A stretch of DNA of 64,000 bases from Nitrospinaceae bacterium (GTDB lineage Bacteria; Nitrospinota; Nitrospinia; Nitrospinales; Nitrospinaceae): the NCBI GenBank assembly GCA_965223665.1, contig OZ245011.1, positions 960,001 to 1,024,000 of the forward strand, given 5' to 3'. The position numbers and the translations under genes are program-made. The stretch's first letter is position 1. Every line of letters starts with the position of its first letter. This document shows, piece after piece, positions 11 through 18,985 of this stretch. Below the pieces are notes generated by a model. It was not told the DNA's origin. It did not search any database and was given only the letters and a program-made list of their open reading frames with translations.

Positions 11-718
11 GTGATTTTAAAAATGTTTAGAATATTTTTCGTTACATTTTTCTTATTATGCTTGGTCGGAAGTCCCGTCAGCGCTGGAAATTTAAAAGGG
101 AAAATAAATTTCAGTGGCAACGTTCCCCCTATTCCTATGCATAAAACAGGTAAATTCAGTAAAGCATGTGGGCCAGAAATAGCTGGAGAGGAGCTTCTTG
201 TTGAAAACAAAGGAGTTAAAAATACAGTTCTGTGGTTAACAGGACGGAAGGCCAAAAAAGTTAAGGCTGATCCAAAGGAATATGTTTTGGATCAAAGTAA
301 ATGTCAATATCATCCGCATGTTACCGTTATGGTTAAGGAATCCGAATTATTAATTCGGACAAGTGATCCTATAAATCATAATATACATACTTATTCTTTT
401 GACAATGATCCAATAAATATTATGTTTGTGCCTGGACAGGAACATAGTCAAGAGTTTGAAGAAGCCGAAGTGGTAAAAGTAGAGTGCGATTTGCATTCAT
501 GGATGCATGCCTGGATTGTAGTTACCCCGAATCCACTTAATGCTTTGACCGATAAAGAAGGAAATTATGAAATAAATAATATTCCGCCCGGAAAATATAC
601 TTTAAATATTTGGCACGAGGCTTTCGGAGAAGCTAGTCAAAAAATAGAAATAAACGATGGGGATACTGAGTTTAATTTTGACCTTATTTCTATCAATCCC
701 CAAGTTTCCAAAAAATAA
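11..718 (+). CDS. Secreted cupredoxin-like / carboxypeptidase-regulatory-like domain protein (paralogue 1)
   Basis: N-terminal signal peptide; HNIH ... ECDLHSWM (H...CxxHxxM type-1-Cu-like); C-terminal 'TDKEGNYEINNIPPGKYTLNIWH' prealbumin-like fold motif. True start may be the ATG at 23. Confidence 0.75.
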   Translation: MILKMFRIFFVTFFLLCLVGSPVSAGNLKGKINFSGNVPPIPMHKTGKFSKACGPEIAGEELLVENKGVKNTVLWLTGRKAKKVKADPKEYVLDQSKCQYHPHVTVMVKESELLIRTSDPINHNIHTYSFDNDPINIMFVPGQEHSQEFEEAEVVKVECDLHSWMHAWIVVTPNPLNALTDKEGNYEINNIPPGKYTLNIWHEAFGEASQKIEINDGDTEFNFDLISINPQVSKK

Positions 719-768
719 AATCACGCTTCAAAATAGCGTTCAAACCTGAAATTGGGAGCTACATTTTC

Positions 769-1605
769 ATGAAAAAGTCGATTCATTTATTAATCACTCT
801 ACTTTCTGTACTTGCGTTTAATTTGTTTCAGGAGACAGAGGCTTACCAGGAAGTCGAAGTAAAAAATGGTGGAACTCTTCAAGGTAAAGCAAGTATGTCC
901 GGACAAACGCCCCAACCCAGGGTTTATCATTTAGTGCTATTTCCAAATTTAGACCTCTGTGCAGAAGTGGATACCGATGATGAAATGAACCGAGTTTTAT
1001 TTGATTTTATTTCAGATGATAAAAAAGGTTTAAAAGATGTAGTCATTGCTCTTGAACATGTCGATGCGGGAAAACCTTTTAATAAAAAACCCATTAATAT
1101 TCTTTCAGAAAACTGCAAGTTTTATCCGGATGTAAATATTGTTAGACAAGGGGAATCGTTTTTTGTCGATAATCAAGATGCAGTAATGCACAACAGTCAG
1201 GTATATCAAGCAGAACGCGGAAAGATTATTTTAAACATCCCTATCCCAGCTGAAGAAGTTTCTGATGGGAAAGTAACTTTCCAAAAAGATTATAAAATTT
1301 TTCAAATGATTTGTGGAATGCATGAGTTTATGCAAACCTGGGGATATAGAGTGCAAAACCCTTATTATTTCAAAACGGGAGTCGATGGCAATTTTAAAAT
1401 TGACAATATTCCTCCAGGAGAATACCAAGTAACTGCCTGGCATTATTTAATGAAGCCACAAAAGAAAAAAATAAAAATAGAACCAAACTCTGTTATAAAT
1501 TTAGAATTTAGCTTTAATGGCGATAAGGTAATTCGACCTCTTTATGAAACTATTAAATCGGGTCGAATTAAAAAAGATGCTAGAGTTCCAGGTGGCATTC
1601 ACTAA
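769..1605 (+). CDS. Secreted cupredoxin-like / carboxypeptidase-regulatory-like domain protein (paralogue 2)
   Basis: Signal peptide; MHNSQ ... ICGMHEFM; 'TGVDGNFKIDNIPPGEYQVTAWH'; GGGAG RBS upstream. Confidence 0.75.
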   Translation: MKKSIHLLITLLSVLAFNLFQETEAYQEVEVKNGGTLQGKASMSGQTPQPRVYHLVLFPNLDLCAEVDTDDEMNRVLFDFISDDKKGLKDVVIALEHVDAGKPFNKKPINILSENCKFYPDVNIVRQGESFFVDNQDAVMHNSQVYQAERGKIILNIPIPAEEVSDGKVTFQKDYKIFQMICGMHEFMQTWGYRVQNPYYFKTGVDGNFKIDNIPPGEYQVTAWHYLMKPQKKKIKIEPNSVINLEFSFNGDKVIRPLYETIKSGRIKKDARVPGGIH

Positions 1606-1641
1606 TTATTCTTTTGAACTAAAGTTTATATCTGAGGAAAG

Positions 1642-3552
1642 TTGAAAACACGTAGTATTTCAAACATCTTTTTTACCCTTGTTTGGGCTCTAGTTTTCTA
1701 TTCTTCTGCCTTTGGGTTTCAATCCCCAGGGCCAAATGATCTTCCAGATTCTATTACTTTTCGAAACGAAAAAATCTCCCTTCTAAACCTTAAAAATCCT
1801 CTGAAAGAAAATTCTGCCGACTATTCAAAAAATGTTAAAGAGGGTGGAGAGATATATTTCAAAAACTGTTTTCTTTGTCATGGGGATTTATTGGATGGCA
1901 ATGGCTTATACGGGAAAAGTTTTACTCCTCGACCTGCTGACTTAAGAAAGTTGTGGACTGATCCCCCTAAAAAAGAAAATTATACTTTTTGGCGAATTGT
2001 TAAAGGTGGAAAGGGTTTACCCAACAATTTTGCTCCCTGGAATTCAGCCATGCCCGCTTGGGAAAATGTATTAACGATTGAAGAAATTTGGAAAGTTATT
2101 TTATTTATTTATGAAACAATACAAAATCCCCAAGTTAAAAATCCTCCCAATGAACCTTCCTTAGACAGGGGGAAGGAAGTTTTTCAAACCAAATGCGCTT
2201 ATTGCCATGGAAAGGATGGTAAAGGAAATGGTGTCTCTGCCCCGTTTTCCAGTCCCCGTCCTAGAAATCTTACAAAGGGTCATATCAAATTTCGCACTAC
2301 CCATTTCGGCAAAATTCCAACAGATGAAGATCTTTATAAGGCTTTAACCAGGGGTCTAAATGCCACAACGATGCCCTCTTGGAAACATTTGGGAGATATT
2401 GATATAAAAAGCCTTATCCTGTATTTAAAATCCATTTCTAAAAAATTCCAAAAATTTGTTGACCGTAAAAAGACACATAAAATTGTTTCAATCCCTACTC
2501 CCCCACCATTTGATTTGGAAAGCACCCAAAGAGGCCGAGAATTATTTATAAAAAATTGTTCCGGTTGTCATGGTTTTAAGGGAAGAAGCGATGGCGAATC
2601 TACTAAGAAAATTGTCAATATTGCCTCAGATGCAATTCGTCCAAGAAACCTGACAAAGTCCTGGACTTTTCGTAGAGGACACTCGAGAAAAGATCTTTTT
2701 CTAACTATCCGTACGGGTTTGTCTACTACCGCTATGCCTCGATTTTCAGATAGAGTCCATTCAGATCAAATGATTTGGGATATTGTTAACTATATATCTA
2801 CGTTATCACCCGCAAAGGAACCCAAAACTCGGGAAGAAATCAAGGCAGTAAAATTAGACAAAGACCTTCCTTTAAACCCTGAAGATCCTCAATGGAAATC
2901 GATTTCAGGGAATTATATTCCCCTGGGTGGTCAAATTATTGATTCAGACAAAGCATACTATACAACTGTTGATAGTTTAAGGGTTCAGGCTATATATAAC
3001 GATACTGAAATTGCAATTAAACTAATTTGGGACGATCCAACCTTTGATCCAATACTTAAAAAGACTTCCAAGGTGGTTGAGTCTCCTGCCCCACCCTTAC
3101 CGGAACATTTGCAAGTTGATTCTGATGAAGCACCGCCAGAAGAAGAACCACAACCCCAAGAGATCCCGGATGCCCTATCCTTACAATTCCCTATTTCTAA
3201 CCAAGAAGGAACAAATCTGCCTTATTTTTTGAATGGAGATGAAATTAATCCTGTGACTTTGTGGAAATGGACTTCACAATCATCAGAAGCTCAAAAATTA
3301 ATCGGTAAAGGACTGAACCAGATATCTGATTTATCTTCGAACAGTCAAAAGGTTCAAACTCAAGTGACTTTTCAATATGGGCAATACCAATTAGTAATGA
3401 AAAGAAGTCTTGTTACAGAGACTCCACAAGATGAAACTCAGTTTGGACAAGGAAAATCAATACCGATTGCTTTTAATATCTGGGATGGTAACGAAGGAGA
3501 ATCTGGAACCAAAAAATCCATTTCGAGTTGGTATCTTTTAGTTTTAGAATAA
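1642..3552 (+). CDS. Triheme c-type cytochrome with C-terminal ethylbenzene-dehydrogenase-gamma-like (EB_dh/DOMON) domain
   Basis: Three CxxCH motifs (CFLCH, CAYCH, CSGCH), each followed by a distal Met (AMP/TMP/AMP); C-terminal 'DALSLQFP...PYFLNGD...PVTLWKW...IAFNIWDG...KKSISSW' typical of EB_dh domains; TTG start with GAGGA RBS. Confidence 0.8.
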   Translation: MKTRSISNIFFTLVWALVFYSSAFGFQSPGPNDLPDSITFRNEKISLLNLKNPLKENSADYSKNVKEGGEIYFKNCFLCHGDLLDGNGLYGKSFTPRPADLRKLWTDPPKKENYTFWRIVKGGKGLPNNFAPWNSAMPAWENVLTIEEIWKVILFIYETIQNPQVKNPPNEPSLDRGKEVFQTKCAYCHGKDGKGNGVSAPFSSPRPRNLTKGHIKFRTTHFGKIPTDEDLYKALTRGLNATTMPSWKHLGDIDIKSLILYLKSISKKFQKFVDRKKTHKIVSIPTPPPFDLESTQRGRELFIKNCSGCHGFKGRSDGESTKKIVNIASDAIRPRNLTKSWTFRRGHSRKDLFLTIRTGLSTTAMPRFSDRVHSDQMIWDIVNYISTLSPAKEPKTREEIKAVKLDKDLPLNPEDPQWKSISGNYIPLGGQIIDSDKAYYTTVDSLRVQAIYNDTEIAIKLIWDDPTFDPILKKTSKVVESPAPPLPEHLQVDSDEAPPEEEPQPQEIPDALSLQFPISNQEGTNLPYFLNGDEINPVTLWKWTSQSSEAQKLIGKGLNQISDLSSNSQKVQTQVTFQYGQYQLVMKRSLVTETPQDETQFGQGKSIPIAFNIWDGNEGESGTKKSISSWYLLVLE

Positions 3553-4827
3553 TTAATGCTTTTCTTTTTTAGAAACCGTCACCACACCTGAGAGCTCAGG
3601 GACTTTTAGGGTTGAAAGAAATGCAAGAATATTTTGTATCTCATTGTTACTTAAAATATCCTTAAAATTACCGGGCATGATTGATATTTTTTGAGTCTTA
3701 AATTTTTTTATTTCTGACTTAGGTATACTCAGTTTATTTCCTTCTTTATTTATGATATGGAGTGAAGTATCATCTTCATTTACTTTAATCCCGGTTAAAA
3801 ACTTTCCTTTTTTGGTCAATATCAAAACCGCTTTATAGCCTGCTGTTATTACAGCCTTGGGATTCAAAATTGACTCTAACAAAAACTCTTTTGTTCGAGT
3901 AGTGCCTACAAAACTTAAATCCGGTCCTACCTTACCACCTTCATTTCCAACTTTATGACACTTTGCACAATAAGCATTTCCCTCAGAGTCATAAAACAAC
4001 TTTTTTCCTTCTACCGGATCTCCGTCTTTATCGAAATAAGCTTCCCATTCATCTGGAAAAGATTCAGACTCCAATGAAGCTAAATAAGCAGTAACTGCCC
4101 GATCTTCTACTTCATTTAATCCAATAGTGGGCATTTTAGTATTTGGTTTAATAAATTGAGGATTCCGAATCCATGTGAATAGCCATTCCGGACTATAAAA
4201 AAATCCCGCTCTTGTTAAGTCAGGGCCTACCATTCCCCCTTCATCTTCTACCGAGTGGCAAGCAAAACAACTTTTTTTCTTTCTAAATAGTTTCTCACCT
4301 AATGCAAGTGTCGCATCCTCTTTCCCATATTTGGAATACCACTCCGTAAACTTTTGAATCTCGTCAGAAGTGATCCTGGGAACTCTTGGACGAATTTTGT
4401 TTATTTTTTCAGGTATTATAATAGGGTTGGTAAGGTCTCTAGCCAAAAACCTCACATAAGAGACTAAGGCCCATATTTCCTTTTCGGAAAGAGTATTTCC
4501 AAAAACCGGCATTAAATGAGATTTCTTTACTGCTTTTCCTCCTAAAGAAATAACTCTATATATTTGGGAATTGGTTTTTTTTGAAATGAAATTAAAGTCA
4601 GATAGCTCAGCAGGTTCTTTATCTAAATTATCTGCGTTATAGCCATCAGCATCCCCACTGACCCCATGACAATGTGCGCAATAATGGTTATATAAAGGCT
4701 TTCCTTTTTTAATTAAATCTTTGGGAAATTCTTTAGCGGTAGGAGGCTTATCACCACTTGCCCATACATAATTACAAGGGATGGCAATAAGTAAAATAAA
4801 AAAAGAAGCAAAGAACCTTCTTAACAT
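3553..4827 (-). CDS. Secreted triheme c-type cytochrome
   Basis: Signal peptide; CAHCH, CFACH, CAKCH; 'GPDL' motifs and C-terminal 'SIMP' typical of CxxCH putative heme-binding domains. Confidence 0.85.
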   Translation of the reverse strand: MLRRFFASFFILLIAIPCNYVWASGDKPPTAKEFPKDLIKKGKPLYNHYCAHCHGVSGDADGYNADNLDKEPAELSDFNFISKKTNSQIYRVISLGGKAVKKSHLMPVFGNTLSEKEIWALVSYVRFLARDLTNPIIIPEKINKIRPRVPRITSDEIQKFTEWYSKYGKEDATLALGEKLFRKKKSCFACHSVEDEGGMVGPDLTRAGFFYSPEWLFTWIRNPQFIKPNTKMPTIGLNEVEDRAVTAYLASLESESFPDEWEAYFDKDGDPVEGKKLFYDSEGNAYCAKCHKVGNEGGKVGPDLSFVGTTRTKEFLLESILNPKAVITAGYKAVLILTKKGKFLTGIKVNEDDTSLHIINKEGNKLSIPKSEIKKFKTQKISIMPGNFKDILSNNEIQNILAFLSTLKVPELSGVVTVSKKEKH

Positions 4828-4927
4828 AATTTTAGAGAAATTTCCTTTCCTCAGGATACTAAATTAAAAACTATGTAAAACTCCTATGATAATAACAAAA
4901 TTTGACAGTCCTTAAAATTATTAAAAC

Positions 4928-4962
4928 AAAAAAAAACAAGGGAACCCCTGGGGGTTCCCTTG
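4928..4962 (-). terminator. Rho-independent terminator after multicopper oxidase copy 1
   Basis: Inverted repeat CAAGGGAACCCC/GGGGTTCCCTTG followed on the minus strand by a U-tract. Confidence 0.8.
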
Positions 4963-4983
4963 CCAAAAAAAATACCTAATCGT

Positions 4984-7900
4984 TTATCGATTCATCGACA
5001 AGCGATTATCATCCTCACGAGAAGCAGATTTGAGGCCGTCCGGAGTGGCACCACCCAATGGTAAGATCGATCGATCTCCCTGAGGTAATACCTTAAAGTA
5101 ACCCCACTGACCAGCCTGCTGGTAAGGTGTCCGTGCATTCAACCATAAATACGTGCCTGGTACATGATACGTACCACCTGCACCATTCAGCAAGAATGCC
5201 TGGATGTACTCACCTCCGCCAAACTCTTCAACATCAATCATATCAGAACCTTCCTGGTTCAAATGCCGACGCCACTGATGACCATCCAAATTAAACATTT
5301 GGTTCTGCTCATTATGTGCGCCAAACACATTGATCATTACCTTGTCTCCTGCATGCGCTTTAATTGTCGGCGTTGCAGGATCATTATCCGCAGCAACACA
5401 AGGTGTAAACATATTACCTAATTCACATCCTTCGTCTTCACGGTAAGTCCAAGGTTCTAATCGATAATTTACACCTGTCAATCCTGCTACATTCTGCAGG
5501 TAAGGCATAAAAGACGTACCTAGAATATTGTCTTCATCCTGAAAATATAATGCAAAATCACGATAATTATCGATATGTGCATTTTCAGGATAAGACTTAT
5601 CAATAATCACGTCTGCTTTCCAGGAATTCCCAAGACTGATGTCTTTACCTGTCTCAGGATCTCGATATACAGAACCACGTGGACCAATGATAATTCCACC
5701 AAATAAACCATCACGTACGTTCGTGACCAGGTCACCAAAATCCCAGATTAAACCGGCATTGATGTTGTAATCCGGATGTGCGTAGAACGTGTACGTTTTG
5801 GATTTACCCGGTGCTACCGTTTGATCTCCAGGATTATTACCTACATTAATTCCTTGAGAATCTAACGGATTAAACGCCATGTTGTTCACATGCAGTGAAG
5901 TCTTACCTTTCTTCAAGCGATTGGTCAATTTCACTTTCACACAATCACCAATATTCGCTCGAAGGGTTAACGGATGCGGCATAGCTCCATCATCCGCGGC
6001 TTTCTTGACTTCATCCTCAAGTACAAATACTTTTCCTTCAGGATTCGCTAACAACAACTTTCGCTCAAAGTCCACTTCGATAATATCTTCTGCATTCGGA
6101 TTGAACTTCAAGGCTTTGTTGATCGCTACCACACTAAAGTTCTTGGTAGGTGCACCTTTTGGACATACTTCTTTTTTACTTTGCAAAATACCGCGAGAAC
6201 CTTCTAAGGGTTGCAGGTCTTTTTGGGCTTTATCATAAACCCGTAAAATACCCCAGCTACCTTCAGAAAGATGCGATGTTCGACCATCATAGAACAGATA
6301 ATCACCAGCCATCTGCTGATAACCACCTGCAGTCGTGGCCAAGTCATACCGTTCCGCAATGCCGACATGCAAGGCATTTGTTACACGGGAATCCCGATCA
6401 TAACGCTCAGGCCTAAAACCATGACCGGAAAGAGAAAACATATGAGTTTCGTTCATCATTCCGTGTAACAACCTGAACACAATCGTATCACCCAAATACG
6501 CACTAATTAAAGGAGTATCCGGATCACGATGTGCTTTACTGCTGAACAACTGAGACGCATCACCATTGGCTTTCAATCTAGCGGACAAAGAAGCAGCCCG
6601 GAAATTAAATCCGCCTCCAGTAGTATGCGTTCCACCATTCAAATACGGGAAGGCCACTTCTAACATATCCTTCGGCATTTGAAAGGAGATAGACTGACCC
6701 GCAGCAATCGCATTCTCTCGGCTCAAACCGGGAGGATTACCTTTTGTAACCAATTGCGCTGTATGCGGTACTGTGTCATGCATTTGTACAACGATTTCAC
6801 GGAAACTACCGTTTCGTCCATAAGCAATCGGTTCCGTGCCATGAATGTCAGCAACAGGTCCACTTCGAATGGGTTTTCCTGTTTTTGGATCATGGTAGGT
6901 CGATCCCCAGGGCTCAACAATAGTAGAACCAATTCCACCGTGCGGCCAGGTGGTCGCACCAAATGCATGGTCGTGCCAAAATACCAAACCTAAATCAGCA
7001 TCTACCCACCAGCGATAACGAACGTACTCCGTGCTCACAATTTGTCCTGCTTTATGAGCATGAGTCATGCCTTCGGTAAAAGTGATTTTGTATTTACCGT
7101 CTTTCGCCGGATTCTTATTAGGATCCGGTTCCATCTTTCCAATCCAGCGAGCGTCTTTACCATTCGGCACTTCAATACCCACAATGATATCGGTACCCAC
7201 GTGGAAAGGGGTTGCATGATGAGCCATCTCGATTTCAATGGTCTTATCACCCGGTTTCGTGTCTTTCAACAAATGTGCATTCATCGGAACCGGCATACCT
7301 ACATGATGGCCATTTTTTTGCTTCTTATCAAACTGCCTGTAAGAACGCATGGACTGGTCATAAGAAAATCCAGAAATAACCCCATCCGATGCTTGATTGT
7401 CAAACTGGAAGAAATGAGGATGAATGTTCACCTTAGACATTTGGAAATTGGTGAAATCATCATCATTCCATTCGCTGGTTAGTAATAAATCCACACAATC
7501 ATAAACATTTGCACGAATGACAAGTGGTTCAGCTTTCTTCGGATCTGCTTTTACGGCAGCCATTTCCTCATCAATAACGTAAATCAAACCGTATTTATCG
7601 ATGATGGGCGGCGTTCCTTTATATCCACCCTGAAGTTCAATGGGGGTATTTATGAACACCAGATTATATTGCTTTCGTCCCGCTCCTTCTGGGCACAAAC
7701 TCCAGCGGCCCTGCTCACCAGGTTTAGCTGGGGTACTGTTTTCCATACCAGAACTTGATCTTCCACTTCCGGATTCTGTTTTAGTTATCACGGAATTGTC
7801 AGTCAAATAATGGAACGGCTCTAACCAGGGAGCCCCACCATGATGACGCGCAAAGGGAACTCGCTTCCCAAAATGCGGGGTCATGTGTGGCCACGCTAAC

Positions 7901-10218: not shown

Positions 10219-10770
10219 TTAGAATTCTCCAGTTTTTTTAAGTTCTTTTTTTAAAAAAACTTTACCGCGAGCAATTCGGGACATTACGGTTCCAATAGGC
10301 AAACCTAAAGAGTTGGCAATTTCTTTGTAAGGCATTCTTTCAAAGTAAAACATTTCAATGGGCCTTCTAAGGCGTTCATCCAATTTAGCTAAAACTTCTC
10401 GTAATTTTTTCTTGGATTCATGGGCGACAAAATCCTTTTCTACATTTGTGGCACCACTCAATTGATTACTTACAATATCAAATTCAACGCCTTTCCATTT
10501 TTTACCTTTTTCTATTTCTTTTAAAAATAGGTTTTTAAGGATTGCAAACAACCAGTTTTTCGACTTCTCTATATCTTTCAACTGAGAAAAGTTTTTTATC
10601 GCATAATAAAAGGTTTCTTGGGTTAGATCCTCAGCATCATGTTGTTTTTTAGCCAATCGGCAAGCACATCTGAAAATCAGGTCCACATGCGGGAGCAAAT
10701 GTTCCTTAATGCCCTCCCGATGTGCATCTTCAATATGTTCCTTTAATTTTCCATCTAAATTAATATTCAC
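10219..10770 (-). CDS. ECF-family RNA polymerase sigma factor
   Basis: Region 2 'DAEDLTQETF...WLFAIL' and region 4 'YKEIANSLGLPIGTVMSRIARG'. Confidence 0.9.
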   Translation of the reverse strand: MNINLDGKLKEHIEDAHREGIKEHLLPHVDLIFRCACRLAKKQHDAEDLTQETFYYAIKNFSQLKDIEKSKNWLFAILKNLFLKEIEKGKKWKGVEFDIVSNQLSGATNVEKDFVAHESKKKLREVLAKLDERLRRPIEMFYFERMPYKEIANSLGLPIGTVMSRIARGKVFLKKELKKTGEF

Positions 10771-11041
10771 TAAATAATTAAACTCGACATTTAACCTAAA
10801 AAATTAAGGGATTTTCTTAATTGAAATTACCTAAATAATAACTAAATTTAATTTTCTTTAAAAGTAAATTAAACGTAATTAATAAAGTATTAAAAAAAGA
10901 CATTAAGGTTTTGTGAAAATAATTGGAATTTTTTTCTTCCACAAAAGGTCTAAAAATAAAATTATATAAATCATAAAAAAAATGAATCCTGCTTAAAAGT
11001 AGGACATCTTATCCTAAATAATTAAGAAATATACCTAAAGT

Positions 11042-11533
11042 ATGGAAGAACAAAAACAAATTCTGGATCAAGAAATTTGGGAAATTTCCCTTAGAATTGA
11101 AAGAGATGGAAGAGCTTTTTATAAGGAACTTGAAAAGCTAATTGATGAACCCACCTTAAAAAGCTTTATTCATCAAATGGCTAATGAAGAGTCTAAACAC
11201 ATAAAGCTTTGCAAATCCATGCTAGAAAAGAAAAAAGGCAAGGTTTACGGTTGGGAAGACAAGCAGGATGTCAAAGAATTCATTAATTCCCAATTTCAAA
11301 CTGACATTTTCCCTAAGTTAAACCAGATAAAAGAGTTTTCTTCGAAGTTAGAAAATTTGCAAAAAGCTTTTGAATTTGCGCTGGAAGCTGAAAAAGTCTC
11401 AGCCGAGTTTTATGCTTTATTAGGTGAATACTGTGAAGACTTTGAAGCTAAAACCACTTTAGCCCTTTTAGAACAAGCTGAACAAGACCATATCAAACAA
11501 GTAATTGAAATCAGAAATAAATTCCCTTCCTAA
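11042..11533 (+). CDS. Ferritin-like / rubrerythrin-family diiron protein
   Basis: Duplicated E...FY...ExxH motifs (ERDGRAFY/EESKH; EKVSAEFY/EQDH); no rubredoxin domain. Confidence 0.8.
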   Translation: MEEQKQILDQEIWEISLRIERDGRAFYKELEKLIDEPTLKSFIHQMANEESKHIKLCKSMLEKKKGKVYGWEDKQDVKEFINSQFQTDIFPKLNQIKEFSSKLENLQKAFEFALEAEKVSAEFYALLGEYCEDFEAKTTLALLEQAEQDHIKQVIEIRNKFPS

Positions 11534-11563: not shown

Positions 11564-11603
11564 AAAAAAAAACAGCACCGGGTCTTTAAGAACCCGATGC
11601 TGT
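11564..11603 (-). terminator. Rho-independent terminator between convergent genes
   Basis: ACAGCACCGGGT/ACCCGATGCTGT stem with an A9 run (U-tract on minus strand). Confidence 0.7.
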
Positions 11604-11619
11604 AATAAATTACCCTTAC

Positions 11620-12438
11620 TTACTTAACAGCTAACTCAAAGTTTTGTTTAGCATCTGCACCACCAGCAACCGTCACTTCAGAAGTAACTTCGCCAATATA
11701 AGGATGCCATGCCGTTACTTTGTATTTACCAGCAGGAATGTTATCAATTTTAAAAGACCCATCCGCGCCAGTCACAGCATAATATGGATTCCATACTATT
11801 CGAGCATCCGCTTCCATGAAGTTATGCTGATCACACTGTAAGAAAAAATGCTTATCTTTTTTCTTTTTAAAACGCTTGAAACTTTTGGTCACGTCCGCAA
11901 CATCACCTTTACTTGGCAATGGCTTATTGAACAATGTTTTTCGGTTTGCACCTACAACCGAATATCCATGAGGATTATGAAGAATATCAGGGTCATGGTT
12001 TGTGATTGTCAATAATCCTTCTTTCATACCTTTAGGGGTTTTGCGAACAATGGATACTTTAGGAAAAATATCGCAGGTTTTGAAATCAAAATTATTGGTT
12101 GCTGTATCCCATTTTTTACCCTTTTCAATATTTTCAATGAATACCACGGTACCATTGAGTTTTCCCCCAGGAGCTACAACTTTTACTCGTGGACGAATTC
12201 CACCTTCTTTAGTATCTGGGTGGGTTGAGCAAAACTCAGAATTTTTTCCTTTATTCAAATCTTCCATGATTGGTGCTGGTGGATCTCCTTTTAAGGTAAC
12301 CGCCCCGCTGATAGACCCTCCACCACTAACATCGCCTTCTTCATACTTAGCTTTTTTAGCAAAAGCCGCAGTACTAAATCCAATGGCAACGCAGATAACT
12401 AAAAAACCAAATAGTACTTTTTTAATCATCCCACACAT
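11620..12438 (-). CDS. Secreted cupredoxin-like / carboxypeptidase-regulatory-like domain protein (paralogue 3)
   Basis: Signal peptide (likely start ATG 12429 after AAGGAG); LHNPH ... QCDQHNFM; 'TGADGSFKIDNIPAGKYKVTAWHP'. Confidence 0.78.
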   Translation of the reverse strand: MCGMIKKVLFGFLVICVAIGFSTAAFAKKAKYEEGDVSGGGSISGAVTLKGDPPAPIMEDLNKGKNSEFCSTHPDTKEGGIRPRVKVVAPGGKLNGTVVFIENIEKGKKWDTATNNFDFKTCDIFPKVSIVRKTPKGMKEGLLTITNHDPDILHNPHGYSVVGANRKTLFNKPLPSKGDVADVTKSFKRFKKKKDKHFFLQCDQHNFMEADARIVWNPYYAVTGADGSFKIDNIPAGKYKVTAWHPYIGEVTSEVTVAGGADAKQNFELAVK

Positions 12439-12520: not shown

Positions 12521-12563
12521 AAAAATAAAACAAAGGGGCCTCCCTCACTTCAAGAGGCCCCTT
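12521..12563 (-). terminator. Hairpin/terminator after multicopper oxidase copy 2
   Basis: AAGGGGCCTC/GAGGCCCCTT inverted repeat followed by an interrupted U-rich tract on the minus strand. Confidence 0.6.
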
Positions 12564-12592
12564 ATAAACAATTTTTTAATACGGATCAACTA

Positions 12593-15500
12593 TTATTTCA
12601 TCGACAAGCGATTATCATCCGCACGAGAAGCAGATTTGAGGCCGTCCGGAGTGGCACCACCCAATGGTAAGATCGATCGATCTCCCTGAGGTAATACCTT
12701 TAAATAACCCCACTGACCAGCCTGCTGGTAAGGTGTCCGTGCATTCAACCATAAATACGTGCCTGGTACATGATACGTACCGCCTGCACCTTTTAGCAAG
12801 AATGCCTGGATGTACTCACCTCCGCCAAACTCTTCAACATCAATCATATCAGAACCTTCCTGGTTCAAATGCCGACGCCACTGATGACCATCCAAATTAA
12901 ACATTTGGTTCTGCTCATTATGTACGCCAAACACATTGATCATTACCTTGTCTCCTGCATGCGCTTTCAATGTCGGCGTTGCAGGCTCATTATCCGCAGC
13001 AACACAAGGTGTAAATATATTACCTAATTCACATCCTTCGTCTTCACGGTAAGTCCAAGGTTCTAATCGATAATTTACACCTGTCAATCCTGCTACATTC
13101 TGCAGGTAAGGCATAAATGAGGTACCAATGATATTGTCTTCATCCTGAAAATATAATGCAAAATCACGATAATTATCGATATGTGCATTTTCAGGATAAG
13201 ACTTATCAATGATCACGTCTGCTTTCCAGGAATTCCCAAGACTGATGTCTTTACCTGTCTCAGGATCTCGGTATACAGAACCACGTGGACCAATGATAAT
13301 TCCACCATACAAACCATCACGTACGTTCGTGACCAGGTCACCAAAATCCCAGATTAAACCGGCATTGATGTTGTAATCCGGATGTGCGTAGAACGTGTAC
13401 GTTTTGGATTTACCCGGTGCTACCGTTTGATCTCCAGGATTATTACCTACATTAATTCCTTGAGAATCTAACGGATTAAACGCCATGTTGTTCACATGCA
13501 GTGAAGTCTTACCTTTCTTCAAGCGATTGGTCAATTTCACTTTCACACAATCACCAATATTCGCTCGAAGGGTTAACGGATGCGGCATAGCTCCATCATC
13601 CGCGGCTTTCTTGACTTCATCCTCAAGTACAAATACTTTTCCTTCAGGATTCGCTAACAACAACTTTCGCTCAAAGTCCACTTCGATAATATCTTCTGCA
13701 TTCGGATTGAACTTCAAGGCTTTGTTGATCGCTACCACACTAAAGTTCTTGGTAGGTGCACCTTTTGGACATACTTCTTTCTTATTAGGGAGAATACCGC
13801 GAGTTCCCTCCAAAGGCTTCAGGTCTTTTTGGGCTTTATCATAAACCCGTAAAATACCCCAGCTACCTTCAGAAAGATGCGATGTTCGACCATCATAGAA
13901 CAGATAATCACCAGCCATCTGCTGATAACCACCTGCAGTCGTGGCCATATCATAACGCTCTGCGATACCTATATGAATTGCATTAGTCACACGGGAATCT
14001 CGATCATAACGTTCTGGACGATATCCATGACCTGATAAAACAAAGGTATGAGTTTCGTTCATCATTCCGTGTAACAACCTGAACACAACCGTATCTCCAA
14101 GATACGCTCTCACTAAAGGAGTATCCGGGTCTCGGTGTGCTTTACTGCTGAATAACTGAGACGCATCTGCATTAGCCTTCAACCTTGTAGCCAAGGAAGC
14201 AGCCCGGAAATTAAATCCGCCTCCAGTAGTATGCGTTCCACCATTCAAATACGGGAAGGCCACTTCTAACATATCCTTCGGCATTTGAAAGGAGATAGAC
14301 TGACCCGCAGCAATCGCATTCTCTCGGCTCAAACCGGGAGGATTACCTTGAGTCACTAATTGTGCTGTGTGCGGTACTGTGTCATGCAACTGCACAACGA
14401 TTTCACGGAAACTACCGTTTCGTCCATAAGCAATCGGTTCCGTGCCATGAATGTCAGCAACAGGTCCACTTCGAATGGGTTTTCCTGTTTTTGGATCATG
14501 GTAGGTCGACCCCCAGGGCTCAACAATAGTGGAACCAATTCCGCCGTGCGGCCAGGTGGTCGCACCAAATGCATGGTCATGCCAGAACACAAGTCCCACA
14601 TCAGCATCCACCCACCAGCGATAACGAACATACTCAGCCGTTACAATTTGACCGGCCTTATGAGCATGAGTCATGCCTTCGGTAAAAGTGATTTTGTATT
14701 TACCGTCTTTCGCCGGATTCTTATTAGGATCCGGTTCCATCTTTCCAATCCAGCGAGCGTCTTTACCATTCGGCACTTCAATACCAACGATAATATCTGC
14801 ACCTACATGGAAAGGATTTGCATGATGAGCCATCTCGATTTCAATGGTCTTATCACCCGGTTTCGTGTCTTTCAACAAATGTGCATTCATCGGAACCGGC
14901 ATACCTACATGATGGCCATTCTTTTCTTTCTTGGTAAATTGCTTATAAGAACGCATGGACTGGTCATAAGAAAATCCAGAAATAACCCCATCCGATGCCT
15001 GGTTATCAAACTGGAAGAAATGAGGATGAATGTTCACCTTAGACATTTGGAAATTGGTGAAATCATCATCATTCCATTCACTGGATAAAAGCACATCCAC
15101 ACAGTCATATACATTAGCTCTAATAACTAACGGATAGGCTTTCTTCGGATCTGCTTTTACGGCCGCCATTTCCTCATCAATAACGTAAATCAAACCGTAT
15201 TTATCGATGATAGGGGGACTTCCTTTATAACCACCCTGAAGTTCAATGGGTGTATTGATGAAATGCAAATTATACTGCTTTCGACCAGCACCTGGAGGAC
15301 AAAGACTCCAGCGACCCTGTTCACCAGGCTTCGCAGGCGAACTGTTTTCCATTGTCGCATCGGAGCGTCCACTACCGGATTCAGTCGAAGTAATAATTTT
15401 ATTATCACTTAAATAATGAAATGGTTCTAACCAGGGAGCTCCACCATGATGACGCGCAAAGGGAACTCGCTTCCCAAAATGCGGGGTCATGTGTGGCCAC

Positions 15501-17506
15501 GCTAACTTACCATTCGTCGGATGAAACTGAATCGAATGACGTTTTCCAGGATGGGGAGATTTGTACTTCGCCATCGGATAAGTCGCCTCACGTTCTGATA
15601 ACGCTCGATTCTTATCCCAGGCATAATCCCATACCGTTCCGTCATAAGCCAATATTTGACCCTTTTCATCATCCGTATGACCAGGCTTGCCTTGCGGTGG
15701 CAACATCGATCTTACCCAATCCTTGATGTTCACCACTGGAATCTCCTGATCCCACTTGCTGGCTCCACTGTCTACAATTTTGAACTTCTTGCCGTACCAG
15801 TTCATCGTTTTACCCACTAACTTGTCTGAACTGATACCTTTAGGAATGTAGCCTTTTCGATCCGGTAACTCCTGCAACGGACGCATAACATCAGTACTGC
15901 CAAATGGATAGTTTCCATCCTGCAGAGTGTTGTACACACGCCAGTATCCCCACATACCCGCAACATAGTGATGCGCTACGTGACAATGGAACAGGAAGTC
16001 CCCTGCCAATTTCTGACACAATCCGGATCCACACTCTGTTTCCAGATCCAATACTTCAGCCGGACCAATTACTTCCACGTCTACACGGTCCGTAGTCGTT
16101 CGAACCACAGGATACTTCACAGGACCGTCATAGGCCGCTGTTATTAAATTCTCAATCCCTGGCTCACGTTTCGGTGAACGAGTCCAACGAATGGTTCCTC
16201 CATGCGGATGATGCGAATGGAACACTTCACCGCCACCATGAATTAACCGAAATTTAGCTGGATCGCCCATGTAAGAACGAGGAATGGTTGTGGGAACATC
16301 CGCAAACGTATAAGAACTGTATGCTAAAGATTCATCTTCATAGTGAAACATTTTTTCTTGAACTGCCAAATTGTTAATTCCAAAGGGTTCACTACGATAG
16401 TTCATCGCACGTGCTGAAGGACGATACGCATCGGTTTGTGGATCCCGTTGTGGAATCATTTCTCCGTGACGGTTCAAAGGACGAAAAGATTCATCCCCAA
16501 CTTCATGATAGAAAAGATTAAATTCACGGAAATCTTTAGCATCATCATTTGCGATCATGGCCATCCAGCCACTCGCAAGTGGTCCACCAGTCCATGGATC
16601 TAAATAATATGATCCTCGTGGTTCAACAATGAAGGCACCAATCAAACCTAATGCGGATGGATCACGACCTGCGTGACTCAAAATTAAATGCGCACCTTCT
16701 TGTTCATCAATCGGAATAAACCATTCAAAATTTTGTGTCTCACCAGATGGAACATTAGCTCCCTTAGAGGCAGCAGTATCAGGCAAACCTGAATCGCTAA
16801 TGATCATCGCAGAACCATTAACCTGGAATCCTGCGTCTTCATCCTCTAATTGGTTCGTAAATTTAATTCGAACACAATCCCCTTGATTGGCACGAATTAC
16901 CAATGGTTGAATCGTATCCCCCTGCAAACCCGTGGAAACTACGCCAGGATCCAGTTCGTCTTCCCGAGCCGCAGCATTGGCCTCTTCATCTTTACGAACC
17001 TGTTCAATGTCCTTTGTCAAAACATACATATAACCTGGGAAGTAATCTCCCCATTGGTTCAATGTGATTTCAACATTGATAGCTGAGATATCGTAAGTTT
17101 TGGTTGGAACTCCAGCCGGGCAATGACCACCCTTAAAAACCTTGTCAGAGGCTTCGGAAGGCCCTAACAAGTATCCCTGCTGTAGCTGATGCGCTGCCCA
17201 TGAATCGTGAAATCCACCTCCGGCTGAGGCAGGGCTGGCATGTTCTTTCAACTTTCCTTTCAAGCGGTCCATCAAAGAACGAAAGGTCTTATTCAATCGA
17301 TCCTGATCCCCTTGTTTTCCCTCCATCATCTCTTCGTAGTTGATTTGATTTTCCAACTTCTCCAACCACGCTGGACGATCTGCTGCCGACCCATGCTTAT
17401 GCATACTCGATGCCGCATACGCCGGAATTACTCCTAACCCAAAGGTTAGTACTAGAGCAATAAATTGCCCCATCCATTTTTTGTTACCAGCCATTTGAAC
17501 CTCCAT
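12593..17506 (-). CDS. Giant six-domain multicopper oxidase (MnxG-like), copy 2
   Basis: Same copper motifs as copy 1; different signal peptide; likely start ATG at 17494 (GGAGG RBS 5 nt upstream). Confidence 0.88.
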   Translation of the reverse strand: MEVQMAGNKKWMGQFIALVLTFGLGVIPAYAASSMHKHGSAADRPAWLEKLENQINYEEMMEGKQGDQDRLNKTFRSLMDRLKGKLKEHASPASAGGGFHDSWAAHQLQQGYLLGPSEASDKVFKGGHCPAGVPTKTYDISAINVEITLNQWGDYFPGYMYVLTKDIEQVRKDEEANAAAREDELDPGVVSTGLQGDTIQPLVIRANQGDCVRIKFTNQLEDEDAGFQVNGSAMIISDSGLPDTAASKGANVPSGETQNFEWFIPIDEQEGAHLILSHAGRDPSALGLIGAFIVEPRGSYYLDPWTGGPLASGWMAMIANDDAKDFREFNLFYHEVGDESFRPLNRHGEMIPQRDPQTDAYRPSARAMNYRSEPFGINNLAVQEKMFHYEDESLAYSSYTFADVPTTIPRSYMGDPAKFRLIHGGGEVFHSHHPHGGTIRWTRSPKREPGIENLITAAYDGPVKYPVVRTTTDRVDVEVIGPAEVLDLETECGSGLCQKLAGDFLFHCHVAHHYVAGMWGYWRVYNTLQDGNYPFGSTDVMRPLQELPDRKGYIPKGISSDKLVGKTMNWYGKKFKIVDSGASKWDQEIPVVNIKDWVRSMLPPQGKPGHTDDEKGQILAYDGTVWDYAWDKNRALSEREATYPMAKYKSPHPGKRHSIQFHPTNGKLAWPHMTPHFGKRVPFARHHGGAPWLEPFHYLSDNKIITSTESGSGRSDATMENSSPAKPGEQGRWSLCPPGAGRKQYNLHFINTPIELQGGYKGSPPIIDKYGLIYVIDEEMAAVKADPKKAYPLVIRANVYDCVDVLLSSEWNDDDFTNFQMSKVNIHPHFFQFDNQASDGVISGFSYDQSMRSYKQFTKKEKNGHHVGMPVPMNAHLLKDTKPGDKTIEIEMAHHANPFHVGADIIVGIEVPNGKDARWIGKMEPDPNKNPAKDGKYKITFTEGMTHAHKAGQIVTAEYVRYRWWVDADVGLVFWHDHAFGATTWPHGGIGSTIVEPWGSTYHDPKTGKPIRSGPVADIHGTEPIAYGRNGSFREIVVQLHDTVPHTAQLVTQGNPPGLSRENAIAAGQSISFQMPKDMLEVAFPYLNGGTHTTGGGFNFRAASLATRLKANADASQLFSSKAHRDPDTPLVRAYLGDTVVFRLLHGMMNETHTFVLSGHGYRPERYDRDSRVTNAIHIGIAERYDMATTAGGYQQMAGDYLFYDGRTSHLSEGSWGILRVYDKAQKDLKPLEGTRGILPNKKEVCPKGAPTKNFSVVAINKALKFNPNAEDIIEVDFERKLLLANPEGKVFVLEDEVKKAADDGAMPHPLTLRANIGDCVKVKLTNRLKKGKTSLHVNNMAFNPLDSQGINVGNNPGDQTVAPGKSKTYTFYAHPDYNINAGLIWDFGDLVTNVRDGLYGGIIIGPRGSVYRDPETGKDISLGNSWKADVIIDKSYPENAHIDNYRDFALYFQDEDNIIGTSFMPYLQNVAGLTGVNYRLEPWTYREDEGCELGNIFTPCVAADNEPATPTLKAHAGDKVMINVFGVHNEQNQMFNLDGHQWRRHLNQEGSDMIDVEEFGGGEYIQAFLLKGAGGTYHVPGTYLWLNARTPYQQAGQWGYLKVLPQGDRSILPLGGATPDGLKSASRADDNRLSMK
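12601..17386. repeat. Long direct repeat unit B; partner at ~4995-9780
   Basis: Colinear with unit A at constant offset 7606. Confidence 0.9.
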
Positions 17507-17617
17507 AGATTTTTTGGCTAAAAAAAAAATTGGGCTGTAAACAAAAACTCCAAAACACTAAAAGTTTTCGTCTACAATTAAATATGATTAATTCATAACT
17601 GAACTAAATCCTTATAA

Positions 17618-18985
17618 TTATTTATTCGGTGCCAGACTTAATAAAAGGGACTCCTCTCCCCGTTCTATTCTGACGTTAAGATTCTCCTGATTTAATTGGG
17701 TCAATATTTCATCGACTTCATTTTTTTTCGATATTTTCTTGCCATTTATATATTTGATAATATCCCCTTCTTTTAATCCCCCTCTTTCGGCGGAACTTTC
17801 AGGAAATACTTGAACAACAATCACACCAATTGTTTCTTGAGTTTTAAATTTTTCAACCAAACCCGGATCTATATTAGCTAACTGGGCTCCCAGAGAAGTA
17901 ACAGCGTTTCTTTGAATAGCTGCAATTTGGTTTTTTGGATTTTCTTTCTTTCCCAATTTGACCGAAACGGTTTTTATTTCACCTTTTCTTAAAATATCAA
18001 TTTGAACGGATTGCCCCGGGGAAATATTTCCAATCAGCTTAATCATGGAGCCTGGGGAGTTTACCTTAATCCCACCGATTTTTAAAATGATATCTCCAAT
18101 TTTAATCCCAGCATTTGAAGCAGGTTGATCCTTAAATACTGAATTGACTAATACACCTTCTTTCGAATCTATATTATCCCTTTTGGCAATATTTTCAGGA
18201 ATAAAGTCGATCCCAACCCCCAACCAACCCCTTTGCACTTCTCCGGTTTCAATTATCTGGTTTGAAACGTTTCTTACAACATTTGAAGGAATCGAAAACC
18301 CAATACTTTGGGCATAATGAATAATGGCGGTATTTATCCCAATAATTTCGCCTCGAATATTTAAAAGGGGTCCGCCACTGTTTCCCGGGTTAATGGATGC
18401 ATCAGTTTGAATAAAATCTTCATACCTTGAAATATTAATATTTTCCCTGTTCAAACCACTTATTACACCCATACTTAAAGTATCGTGAAGTCCATAGGGA
18501 TTTCCTATTGCAACAACCAACTGTCCTACTTTCAATTTTGAAGAATCGCCCAACTTTACCTGGGGTAATGGATCTTCTGAATCAACCTTTATAACAGCTA
18601 AATCTGTCTCTTCATCGCTACCTAAAACACGGCCAATCAATTCTTTTCCCTTATATAAAGTTACGAGAATCTTTTCAGCCTTTTTTACAACGTGACTGTT
18701 GGTAACGATATAACCATTACGCCCATCAATAATAACCCCGGCACCCGCATTTGTTGAACGGCCCTTAGGGGTCTCTCCCTGCTTAAGAATTGACGGGGAA
18801 GGTGGAACATAGGGTGAAATATTAACTACAGCTGGTAACGTATGCTCAGCAAGACCCACCAATCCGATTTCTATTTCTTCTAAAATCTTTAGCCCGTTTG
18901 CCGAGTGTTCCGCAAAAGAACGAGAGGACAACATGGACAGGACCAGGACCCCAAGAAATGCAAAAAGAAATTTTCGGCAACTCAT
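17618..18985 (-). CDS. degP: DegP/DegQ (HtrA) periplasmic serine protease with two PDZ domains
   Basis: TNSHV, TDLAV and INPGNSGGPL catalytic motifs; two PDZ domains; signal peptide. Confidence 0.9.
   Translation of the reverse strand: MSCRKFLFAFLGVLVLSMLSSRSFAEHSANGLKILEEIEIGLVGLAEHTLPAVVNISPYVPPSPSILKQGETPKGRSTNAGAGVIIDGRNGYIVTNSHVVKKAEKILVTLYKGKELIGRVLGSDEETDLAVIKVDSEDPLPQVKLGDSSKLKVGQLVVAIGNPYGLHDTLSMGVISGLNRENINISRYEDFIQTDASINPGNSGGPLLNIRGEIIGINTAIIHYAQSIGFSIPSNVVRNVSNQIIETGEVQRGWLGVGIDFIPENIAKRDNIDSKEGVLVNSVFKDQPASNAGIKIGDIILKIGGIKVNSPGSMIKLIGNISPGQSVQIDILRKGEIKTVSVKLGKKENPKNQIAAIQRNAVTSLGAQLANIDPGLVEKFKTQETIGVIVVQVFPESSAERGGLKEGDIIKYINGKKISKKNEVDEILTQLNQENLNVRIERGEESLLLSLAPNK

What the first reader, a model, noticed from the sequence alone, without database searches (positions are those of the whole stretch)
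11..18985. Candidate periplasmic copper-heme redox system: two giant multicopper oxidases, three cupredoxin-like partners, two triheme cytochromes, ECF sigma and DegP
Seen: eight of the ten genes in 11-18985 encode exported proteins (the ECF sigma and ferritin-like protein are the exceptions), and seven of those carry Cu or heme-c motifs. Known: large six-domain MCOs of the MnxG type oxidise Mn(II) with accessory proteins, and MCOs couple four one-electron oxidations to O2 reduction. Inference: the set looks like one electron-transfer chain in which multiheme cytochromes feed T1-copper carriers that feed an O2-reducing MCO. Possible roles are a periplasmic non-proton-pumping oxidase or O2 sink, a metal (Mn/Fe/Cu) oxidase, or an N-oxide-handling module in a probable nitrite oxidiser. 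I know of no characterised system with this composition, and the substrate is unknown.
Basis: partly seen in the sequence, partly recalled or inferred. Interest (0 to 1): 0.82.

Follow-up and report, generated by a model that had tools for sequence, protein, structure and literature searches.

The report
Twin copper oxidases of Nitrospinales
This is a marine nitrite-oxidising bacterium's version of a gene cluster noted in 2013 but apparently never assayed: two near-identical copies of a giant oxygen-reducing copper enzyme, the second apparently switched on by its own stress sigma factor, beside small blue-copper and haem proteins that are only partly tied to it.

Summary
The ten genes and their motifs are real. 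The host is a Nitrospinales bacterium with nxrABC and no haem-copper oxidase. The cluster is in print (Lücker 2013: 'possible manganese oxidase', alt_NxrC4), and this scan met it four times before. It is not one operon but three modules. (1) DegP-oxidase-cupredoxin: the oxidase-cupredoxin link also holds in Nitrospirota-type loci (5 of 5). (2) Ferritin-like gene, ECF sigma and a second oxidase copy: an ECF-type promoter precedes this copy in 18 of 18 gaps and 0 of 21 DegP-oxidase gaps; copies evolve in concert. (3) CupA-CupB-trihaem cytochrome: adjacent in 12 of 19 genomes, absent from Nitrospirota-type loci. All ten copper ligands are invariant in 111 of 111 homologues. A published supplement shows the likely Nitrospira marina orthologue rising from 14 to 1,885 copies per cell at low O2. 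Best reading: an inducible, non-proton-pumping periplasmic O2 reductase fed by blue-copper carriers (0.38). Mn/Fe oxidase (0.32) and NO oxidase (0.15) remain open. No interaction or activity was shown.

The parts
12593..17506 (-). MCO1: six-domain MnxG-like multicopper oxidase, 1637 aa, DegP-linked copy. T1 H430/C508/H513/M518; T2 H433/H827; T3 H435/H507/H509/H829/H976/H978; T1 sites of domains 4 and 6 degenerate
4984..9909 (-). MCO2: second copy, 1641 aa, 94% identical to MCO1, behind an ECF-type promoter
17618..18985 (-). DegP/HtrA protease with two PDZ domains and intact His/Asp/Ser motifs; upstream of one oxidase copy in Nitrospinales only; probably a periplasmic folding or quality-control factor (inferred)
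11620..12438 (-). CupC: amicyanin-like type 1 copper domain (H154, C202, H205, M208) inside a CarboxypepD_reg beta-sandwich; basic (pI 9.2); follows the DegP-linked oxidase in 16 of 17 loci
769..1605 (+). CupB: same family (H141, C182, H185, M188); in 73 of 77 Nitrospinales genomes; a homologue with the same CGMHEFM motif follows the oxidase directly in Nitrospirota-type loci
11..718 (+). CupA: same family (H123, C159, H162, M165), first gene of the cupA-cupB-cyt636 unit
1642..3552 (+). Trihaem c cytochrome plus EB_dh domain, corresponding to alt_NxrC4 of N. gracilis; Met-to-Asn at the NxrC haem b position; single-copy orthologue in 49 of 51 genomes
3553..4827 (-). Trihaem c cytochrome (TIGR02603 domain) with three conserved Met-Pro motifs; optional neighbour (9 of 22 locus sets)
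10219..10770 (-). ECF sigma factor; present exactly when a second oxidase copy is present in 16 of 16 near-closed genomes; no anti-sigma gene beside it
11042..11533 (+). Cytoplasmic ferritin-like (rubrerythrin-domain) protein with two ExxH motifs, divergent from the ECF gene
10077..10102 (-). ECF-type promoter GGAATA-N16-GGTC(T) in front of MCO2
10925..10950 (+). Second match to the same pattern, facing the ferritin-like gene (relatives carry a ferritin-facing copy overlapping the sigma-70-like site in 11 of 18 cases)
10835..10862 (-). Sigma-70-like site TTTAAA-N16-TATTAT in front of the ECF gene, found in 14 of 18 loci (no shuffle control was run for this count)
12533..12563 (-). Intrinsic terminator-like hairpin between MCO1 and cupC
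4935..4964 (-). Intrinsic terminator-like hairpin between MCO2 and cyt424
11572..11603 (-). Terminator-like hairpin after cupC, between cupC and the convergent ferritin-like gene

Best explanation
The oxidase is a Sec-exported periplasmic enzyme with one working type 1 copper (domain 2) and a trinuclear cluster between domains 2 and 3. It takes four single electrons and reduces O2 to water (shown: ligand set and fold; the chemistry follows from established MCO biochemistry). Its most likely donors are the amicyanin-like Cup proteins, charged from the high-potential haem c pool of nitrite oxidation, for example through the CupB-cyt636 (alt_NxrC4) pair (inferred). [quoted passage not shown] It would be a protective electron and O2 sink, raised under O2 limitation or envelope stress, and not the cell's energy-conserving terminal oxidase. 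One copy is tied to DegP; a second, interchangeable copy adds dosage under an ECF sigma factor together with a ferritin-like protein (promoter pattern shown, regulation inferred).
For: Ten Cu ligands invariant in 111 of 111 full-length homologues. Cup proteins keep His/Cys/His/Met in 20 of 20 sequences at 21-60% identity, and the profile hits a blue copper protein (E 5e-4) and, weakly, amicyanin. A cup gene follows the oxidase in 16 of 17 DegP-linked Nitrospinales loci, in 5 of 5 Nitrospirota-type loci with downstream sequence and, by annotation and size, behind both N. moscoviensis copies. Oxidase and cupB share a range: 67 and 73 of 77 Nitrospinales genomes, 0 of 15 genomes of other orders. 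Anammox bacteria share the NXR accessory cluster but lack the oxidase (PMC3578206 passage). Two of 91 long distant relatives fuse the oxidase to a di-haem CCP/MauG domain and four carry a CxxHxxM motif. The likely N. marina orthologue is the most significant low-O2 protein (16-fold by spectral counts; 14 to 1,885 copies per cell from one peptide). Nitrospinae 'MnxG' peptides correlate negatively with O2 in the Pacific (r = -0.47). N. moscoviensis transcribes its copies at apparent ranks 19 and 53 during nitrite oxidation.
Against: Terminator-like hairpins follow 39 of 48 oxidase 3' ends, including between oxidase and cup. The N. marina neighbour is not co-induced. Cytochromes are not linked outside Nitrospinales and are separated in four genomes. 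G000 has further cup paralogues elsewhere, two beside or fused to haem c proteins, so Cup proteins may be general carriers. An uncoupled O2 sink competes with respiration exactly when O2 is scarce, and laccases usually have modest O2 affinity (recalled). The closest characterised relative is a manganese oxidase. The two-phylum pattern amounts to two lineages, probably joined by gene transfer (PMC3578206), so it is not many independent events.
Confidence: 0.38

Rival explanations
1. A MnxG-like metal oxidase, Mn(II) or Fe(II) rather than Cu(I). It oxidises reduced metal in the periplasm for detoxification, uptake or Mn(III)-based defence against reactive oxygen (the reading of Lücker 2013). The Cup proteins serve copper handling or are independent carriers.
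For: Best sequence and fold match is Bacillus MnxG (E 1.5e-94; Z 31.2), with the same motif order. A nearly invariant H388-x-E390-D391-E392 stretch aligns with MnxG's DSEEVHHD stretch. The second copy shares its promoter pattern with a ferritin-like gene. SOD and KatG rise with it in N. marina. Ca. Manganitrophaceae encode two MCOs each, and one homologue is named from Manganitrophus (63% identity, P0072). Cytochrome c maturation is needed for Mn oxidation in Pseudomonas (review passage).
Against: Only 21-27% structural-alignment identity to MnxG; NCBIfam MnxG model 111-116 bits against a cut-off of 3100. No ORF of 90 aa or more that could be MnxE/F or SCO1 lies in the locus. In N. marina the varied factor was O2. 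The authors who mapped it in the ocean state that Mn oxidation is unconfirmed. The acidic loop is modelled with low confidence.
Confidence: 0.32
2. An NO oxidase. It turns NirK-derived NO back into nitrite with O2 as acceptor, protecting respiration and returning substrate when O2 is low.
For: G000 has two NirK genes over the family cut-off and no PF00115 protein (that NorB falls in this family is recalled). norBC is absent from all Nitrospinota analysed in PMC10839748. Nitrospira inopinata controls NO tightly without NO reductase. The two-domain MCO gene ncgA of Nitrosomonas lies in the nirK cluster and rises 2.6-fold under O2 limitation. Ceruloplasmin, the next fold match, is reported as an NO oxidase (recalled; search listing only).
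Against: No nirK gene lies in the window locus, and I did not test the other loci for it. No direct evidence. It does not explain the conserved cup neighbour.
Confidence: 0.15
3. The missing main or high-affinity terminal oxidase of Nitrospinales.
For: A haem-copper oxidase was found in only 11 of 77 Nitrospinales genomes and not in G000, the oxidase in 67 of 77. Three papers state that the terminal oxidase of these bacteria is unidentified or unconfirmed.
Against: A soluble periplasmic enzyme cannot build a proton gradient with periplasmic NXR (inference). A membrane bd-like oxidase is as widespread (71 of 77, mostly 88-98% identical) and is the published candidate. N. marina holds only about 14 copies per cell in air.
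Confidence: 0.06

Closest known systems
Nitrospina gracilis 3/211 locus NITGRv1_620035-620040 and the Nitrospira defluvii orthologue (Lücker et al. 2013, PMC3578206; passages and supplement rows read)
   Same: Same genes in the same order as far as the table lists them: APS reductase 620035, multicopper oxidase 620037 (1634 aa, 'possible manganese oxidase', 55% to N. defluvii), alt_NxrC4 620040 (642 aa, three haem c). The N. gracilis protein is 82% identical to MCO1 (P0018).
   Different: The table lists one oxidase. The tandem second copy, the ECF and ferritin-like module and its promoter are not in the passages I saw. The haem b ligand position of alt_NxrC4 is Asn here.
Bacillus sp. PL-12 MnxG / Mnx complex (PDB 9bxa; described through review PMC13689576)
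   Same: Six cupredoxin domains, T1 in domain 2, trinuclear site between domains 2 and 3, degenerate sites in domains 4 and 6; best fold match.
   Different: 21-27% identity; about 400 residues longer, with an N-terminal extension and an insertion in domain 3; no MnxE/F-sized gene in the locus; periplasmic, not exosporium; neighbours are blue-copper proteins; activity untested.
Pseudomonas MnxG (NCBIfam NF041487) and McoA
   Same: Large Sec-exported MCO of a Gram-negative bacterium; genetic link to c-type cytochromes reported.
   Different: Far below the family cut-off; no SCO1/SenC or MnxS1S2R genes in the locus.
Nitrosomonas europaea NcgABC / blue copper oxidase (PDB 3g5w)
   Same: An MCO of a nitrifier, of unresolved role, transcribed more under O2 limitation; clustered with small c cytochromes (recalled).
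   Different: Two-domain enzyme, encoded with nirK; 14% identity in the fold search.
Ceruloplasmin
   Same: Six-domain MCO fold (Z 21.8).
   Different: Permuted domain order, one T1 site here, 11-17% identity.

Membership tests
Multicopper oxidase (O2-reducing) | T1 His-Cys-His(-Met) plus eight His of the trinuclear cluster in four motifs | tested here: met
   T1 H430, C508, H513, M518 and cluster H433, H435, H507, H509, H827, H829, H976, H978 plus the shared motif context are invariant in 111 of 111; aligned with MnxG
Multicopper oxidase (O2-reducing) | Measured four-electron reduction of O2 | not testable with these tools
   No assay found in print
MnxG-type six-domain MCO | Six domains with the T1 motifs (domain 2) before the HxH motifs (domain 3) | tested here: met
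MnxG equivalog NF041487 | Score at or above the curated cut-off (3100 bits) | tested here: not met
   110.6 and 115.8 bits
Bacillus Mnx system | MnxE/MnxF accessory genes beside mnxG | tested here: inconclusive
   No small forward ORF of 90 aa or more in the gaps of 111-309 bp around either oxidase; the genome was not searched with MnxE/F sequences
Bacillus Mnx system | Mn(II) to MnO2 oxidation | not testable with these tools
   PMC9477243 states it is unconfirmed
Type 1 blue copper protein (amicyanin-like) | His plus Cys-x2-His-x2-Met ligand set | tested here: met
   Invariant in 20 of 20 diverse members and 34 of 34 CupC domains
Type 1 blue copper protein (amicyanin-like) | Cupredoxin fold | tested here: inconclusive
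alt_NxrC / DMSO reductase type II haem b subunit | EB_dh domain | tested here: met
   PF09459 62 bits, cut-off 33.3
alt_NxrC / DMSO reductase type II haem b subunit | Met and Lys haem b ligands (positions recalled, read off the genome's NxrC) | tested here: not met
   Lys kept, Met replaced by Asn in 12 of 12 orthologues
ECF sigma regulon | Bipartite GGAA-type promoter before the target gene | tested here: met
   18 of 18 against shuffle mean 0.36; held-out 6 of 7 and 4 of 4; 0 of 21 and 0 of 17 in DegP-linked gaps
ECF sigma regulon | Recognition of that promoter by this sigma factor | not testable with these tools
   Indirect only: ECF and second copy co-occur in 16 of 16 near-closed genomes
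Energy-conserving terminal oxidase | Membrane-integral, charge-separating catalytic subunit | tested here: not met
   No hydrophobic segment beyond the N-terminus in any of the ten proteins

The most novel reading that the evidence does not exclude
Nitrite oxidisers of two phyla carry an unrecognised soluble respiratory branch in the periplasm: a MnxG-derived oxidase that no longer handles manganese but drains electrons from blue-copper carriers of the nitrite-oxidation chain (or oxidises NO) to O2, amplified about a hundredfold at low O2. The abundant 'Nitrospinae MnxG' of ocean oxyclines would then report O2 or NO stress of nitrite oxidisers and not Mn cycling, and would be a sink of O2 and nitrite uncoupled from growth.
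Probability: 0.4. Interest if true: 0.82.

Novelty: new variant of a known kind. Interest (0 to 1): 0.52.

Why it matters
This protein is the second most abundant Nitrospinae oxidoreductase in Pacific metaproteomes (PMC9477243) and is conserved at 57-65% identity between two phyla of nitrifiers, yet its function rests on a 2013 homology guess. How Nitrospinaceae handle O2 without a haem-copper oxidase is an open question stated in three papers. The result narrows the test: one enzyme, three candidate donors (Cup carriers, reduced metal, NO), a defined promoter and sigma factor, and a low-O2 induction that sits in a supplement whose main text never names the protein. If it oxidises Mn it couples marine N and Mn cycles; if it drains the nitrite chain or removes NO it changes how nitrite oxidation at oxyclines is read. 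The locus itself is not new.

Tried and rejected
Structure without an alignment gave pLDDT 32 and was discarded. The Atlas search for the domain 3 insertion was not available. No RNA holder was listed for the stretch. Contigs of two runs from one sample cover all 30 bins, but none spans the tandem pair. Rfam found nothing in 1-20000. Single-sequence PDB searches with CupC and its alignment found no cupredoxin; only the diverse profile did. My first NxrB probe had no positive control and is disregarded. The repeat showed a 90%-identical NxrB fragment in G034, so the lack of NxrA in genus g9 (0 of 4) is probably an assembly gap and I do not use it as evidence that the oxidase occurs without NXR. 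NxrA was found in only 44 of 77 Nitrospinales genomes, so strict co-occurrence could not be tested. No FNR-like box was found upstream of five Nitrospirota-type oxidases, although L143 has a CRP/FNR-family gene beside it. The promoter pattern alone is not enriched in the window (11 matches, 12.3 expected); its weight comes from position across loci. The weight-matrix score on its own training sites is circular, and genome-wide hits were not assigned to genes because that script returned nothing. The tree is the quick one; the careful search did not return. HMMs of Cup, cytochrome and DegP families found no fusion in 149 distant relatives. Nitrospirota genomes could not be searched as a group; six metagenome loci and two supplements stand in. 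The Mnx cryo-EM paper is not held, so Mn-binding residues were not compared. PMC8387239 and PMC13374858 passages added nothing. Rejected: one operon (terminators, opposed strands); the oxidase as the main terminal oxidase; assembly duplication.
Full report
What is there. The span holds ten genes as described. Pfam and NCBIfam give two multicopper oxidases, two trihaem c cytochromes, an ECF sigma factor, a rubrerythrin-domain protein, a DegP protease and three proteins recognised only as CarboxypepD_reg beta-sandwiches. Named homologues of the oxidase come from Nitrospinota at 74-95% identity and from Nitrospirota at 57-65%. The genome has nxrABC, a bd-like oxidase, two nirK genes and no PF00115 haem-copper oxidase.

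The oxidases. MCO1 and MCO2 are 94% identical. In 111 full-length sequences (109 of the 120 listed hits, those over 1580 aa, plus the two window proteins) the type 1 ligands H430, C508, H513, M518 and the cluster histidines H433, H435, H507, H509, H827, H829, H976, H978 are invariant. Internal alignments show three two-domain repeats; the T1 cysteine is lost in domains 4 and 6. A model of residues 123-1233 (pLDDT 76) matches Bacillus MnxG best (Z 31.2, rmsd 3.3, 725 residues), with ceruloplasmin and factor V at Z 21-22. It scores 111-116 bits against the MnxG equivalog cut-off of 3100. So it works like a MnxG-type MCO in architecture but is not a member of that equivalog. At the 50% cluster level the family is one cluster; the next full-length relatives lie at 46% or less and, where named, come from Planctomycetota, Anaerolineae and Nitriliruptorales (ten proteins looked up).

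The small partners. The three unnamed proteins keep His, Cys, His, Met and one further Cys pair in 20 of 20 family members at 21-60% identity. A profile hits a blue copper protein at E 4.7e-4 and amicyanin weakly. They are most likely amicyanin-like T1 domains set into a beta-sandwich; the fold was not modelled. Both cytochromes have three CxxCH; Met-Pro motifs follow them (cyt424, cyt636 read), suggesting His/Met haems (inference). Cyt636 corresponds to alt_NxrC4 of N. gracilis, but has Asn where the genome's NxrC has Met in 12 of 12 orthologues, so its haem b is doubtful.

One system or several. Neighbourhoods of up to 40 kb were compared in 22 locus sets from 19 genomes. DegP precedes an oxidase in 17 sets, and cupC follows in 16 of these. 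Cyt636 is close in 12 of 19 genomes; it lies 17, 61, 77 and 380 kb from the nearest oxidase in G034, G025, G030 and G039 and is unresolved in three. It always travels with cupB where both were mapped. As a control, cysH sits beside degP in 17 of 17 sets, so gene order here is conserved regardless of function. Six metagenome loci of the Nitrospirota-type protein give the stronger test: 5 of 5 with downstream sequence have a cupB-like gene with the same CGMHEFM motif directly behind the oxidase, 4 of 4 with room have a second cup gene, and none has a CxxCH protein or a match to DegP, the ECF or the ferritin-like gene. Only L142 carries a source name (Nitrospira sp., through P0115). Both N. moscoviensis copies are followed by two exported proteins of 278-309 aa, two of them annotated as carboxypeptidase regulatory-like (supplement rows). 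Terminator-like hairpins follow MCO1, cupC and MCO2 and 39 of 48 oxidase ends examined, some of them duplicates of the same locus. The cross-phylum core is therefore oxidase plus cupredoxin; CupB bridges it to the cytochrome; the rest is modular.

The second copy. In a tree of 27 Nitrospinales copies and four outgroups, copies group by lineage and not by position (9 label changes for DegP-linked, 7 for ECF-linked, no fewer than shuffles; quick tree), although the tandem layout is shared by three families. Concerted evolution of an old duplication is the simplest reading; repeated independent duplication is not excluded. All 18 ECF-oxidase gaps contain GGAAT(A/T)-N16-18-(A/G)TC on the coding strand (shuffle mean 0.36, maximum 3), 0 of 21 DegP-oxidase gaps do, and 11 of 18 regions upstream of the ECF carry it on the strand facing the ferritin-like gene. 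The pattern was read from those 18. In held-out loci it occurs in 6 of 7 ECF-linked copies, 4 of 4 second copies of genus g9, where the ECF gene is not adjacent, 2 of 3 short unassigned loci, 0 of 17 DegP-linked copies (partly the same genomes as before) and 0 of 5 Nitrospirota-type loci. Among 16 genomes in at most 10 contigs, seven have both the ECF and a second copy and nine have neither; among fragmented genomes G015 and G066 have two oxidase matches and no ECF match. Kin are not independent.

Range. In 92 genomes of the phylum, 77 of them Nitrospinales, the oxidase was found in 67 of 77 and 0 of 15 others, cupB in 73 and 0, the bd-like oxidase in 71 and 12, a haem-copper oxidase in 11 and 8, NxrA in 44 and 3, the latter at 42-62% identity.

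What is in print. PMC3578206 (passages and supplement rows) describes the oxidase as a possible Mn oxidase for defence against reactive oxygen, conserved with Nitrospira and absent from Kuenenia. PMC9477243 (passages) finds it the second most abundant Nitrospinae oxidoreductase, r = -0.47 with O2, correlated with NxrA in the north and KatG in the south, function unconfirmed. PMC8115632 (passages, supplement 3 whole, supplement 4 part 1 and searched rows): the main text has no occurrence of 'multicopper', 'multi-copper' or 'MCO', but a 1627-aa multicopper oxidase heads the low-O2 list (16-fold, adjusted p 1.6e-18) and rises from 14 to 1,885 copies per cell by one labelled peptide, against about 10,000-14,000 for NxrA; its 306-aa neighbour changes 1.5-fold, not significantly. 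Orthology is inferred from length, neighbour and a peptide matching a family member at 7 of 10 positions, not from a full alignment. PMC6606698 (passages and supplement rows): two copies at what I read as expression ranks 19 and 53, with the cup-like genes 4- to 9-fold lower. PMC10839748, PMC13768755 and PMC8026999 (passages) favour the bd-like CydAA' as terminal oxidase, call it unconfirmed, and do not contain the word 'multicopper'; their supplements were not read. PMC9040806 (passages) notes two MCOs in each Manganitrophaceae genome. PMC13689576 (passages) summarises Mnx. PMC6478695 and PMC6967387 (passages) bear on NO. Searches turned up no assay of this enzyme and no mention of the ECF module; subscription journals are not covered.

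How it most likely works. Shown: a complete O2-reducing copper set, conserved blue-copper neighbours in two phyla, a separate promoter for the second copy, and no membrane anchor. From the literature: strong induction at low O2 in one likely orthologue, high expression in another. Inferred: electrons reach the T1 site from reduced Cup proteins, themselves charged by c-type cytochromes of the nitrite-oxidation pool; the reaction makes no proton gradient and serves as a protective sink. I give this 0.38. A metal oxidase with a role against reactive oxygen is nearly as likely (0.32): the nearest characterised relative oxidises Mn, an acidic histidine loop is conserved, and the co-regulated gene is ferritin-like. 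An NO oxidase (0.15) would fit cells that have NirK and no NO reductase. A role as the main terminal oxidase is unlikely (0.06).

Verdict. The single-chain reading is partly right: the oxidase-cupredoxin link is real, the cytochromes are a neighbouring module that may feed it, and the ECF-ferritin-second copy unit is regulatory. The locus is known and was met before by this scan, but its function is open and now testable in a few assays. Interest 0.52.

Noticed in passing
P0121 (2500 aa, Planctomycetota by a cluster member's name) and P0126 (Anaerolineae): The closest full-length relative outside the family (46%) carries DUF3347 at the N-terminus and, after a hydrophobic stretch, a di-haem CCP/MauG domain; P0126 also fuses the oxidase to CCP/MauG and to Ig-like repeats.
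   Followed up: partly
window 14620-14950 (MCO1 residues about 855-960): A roughly 100-residue beta-rich insertion in domain 3 with invariant M873, H900 and H949; possibly an extra metal or docking site. No assignment was obtained.
   Followed up: partly
window 17140-17410 (MCO1 residues about 33-125): An N-terminal extension absent from MnxG, partly conserved across both phyla (W47, E58, M79, H89); left out of the model.
   Followed up: no
L001:4691-6064 (G000:C1 about 944691-946064): A TPR-fused fourth Cup-family protein 14 kb upstream with Leu in place of the axial Met (CNLHPFL); it is the best match of the second Nitrospirota-type cup gene.
   Followed up: partly
G000:C1:2625829-2626635 and 2884330-2886126: Two further CupC paralogues (66% and 75%), one beside a monohaem cytochrome gene and one fused to a haem c domain.
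   Followed up: no
L001:19233-19721 (-): A redoxin gene (CxxC) divergent from cupA, conserved in 11 locus sets, followed by an ABC-type export cluster.
   Followed up: no
L143:8898-9614: A CRP/FNR-family regulator with an N-terminal Cys cluster directly upstream of a Nitrospirota-type oxidase.
   Followed up: partly
L076 and G053, G049: Three tandem oxidase copies with repeated cupC-ECF units in L076 and three matches on one contig of G053; G049 and G002 hold broken copies.
   Followed up: no
L080, L100, L109, L117, L120, L130: Short contigs with 78-85% identical oxidases in genome bins of unrelated phyla, probably mis-binned Nitrospinales DNA.
   Followed up: no
window 19395-64000: Ordinary genes among those scanned: cysH, CbiQ-like, HD protein, SelO, DksA-type, DnaB, LemA, IleRS, TrpRS-type synthetase, tRNA nucleotidyltransferase, ABC transporters; 57489-58796 has no Pfam match.
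   Followed up: no
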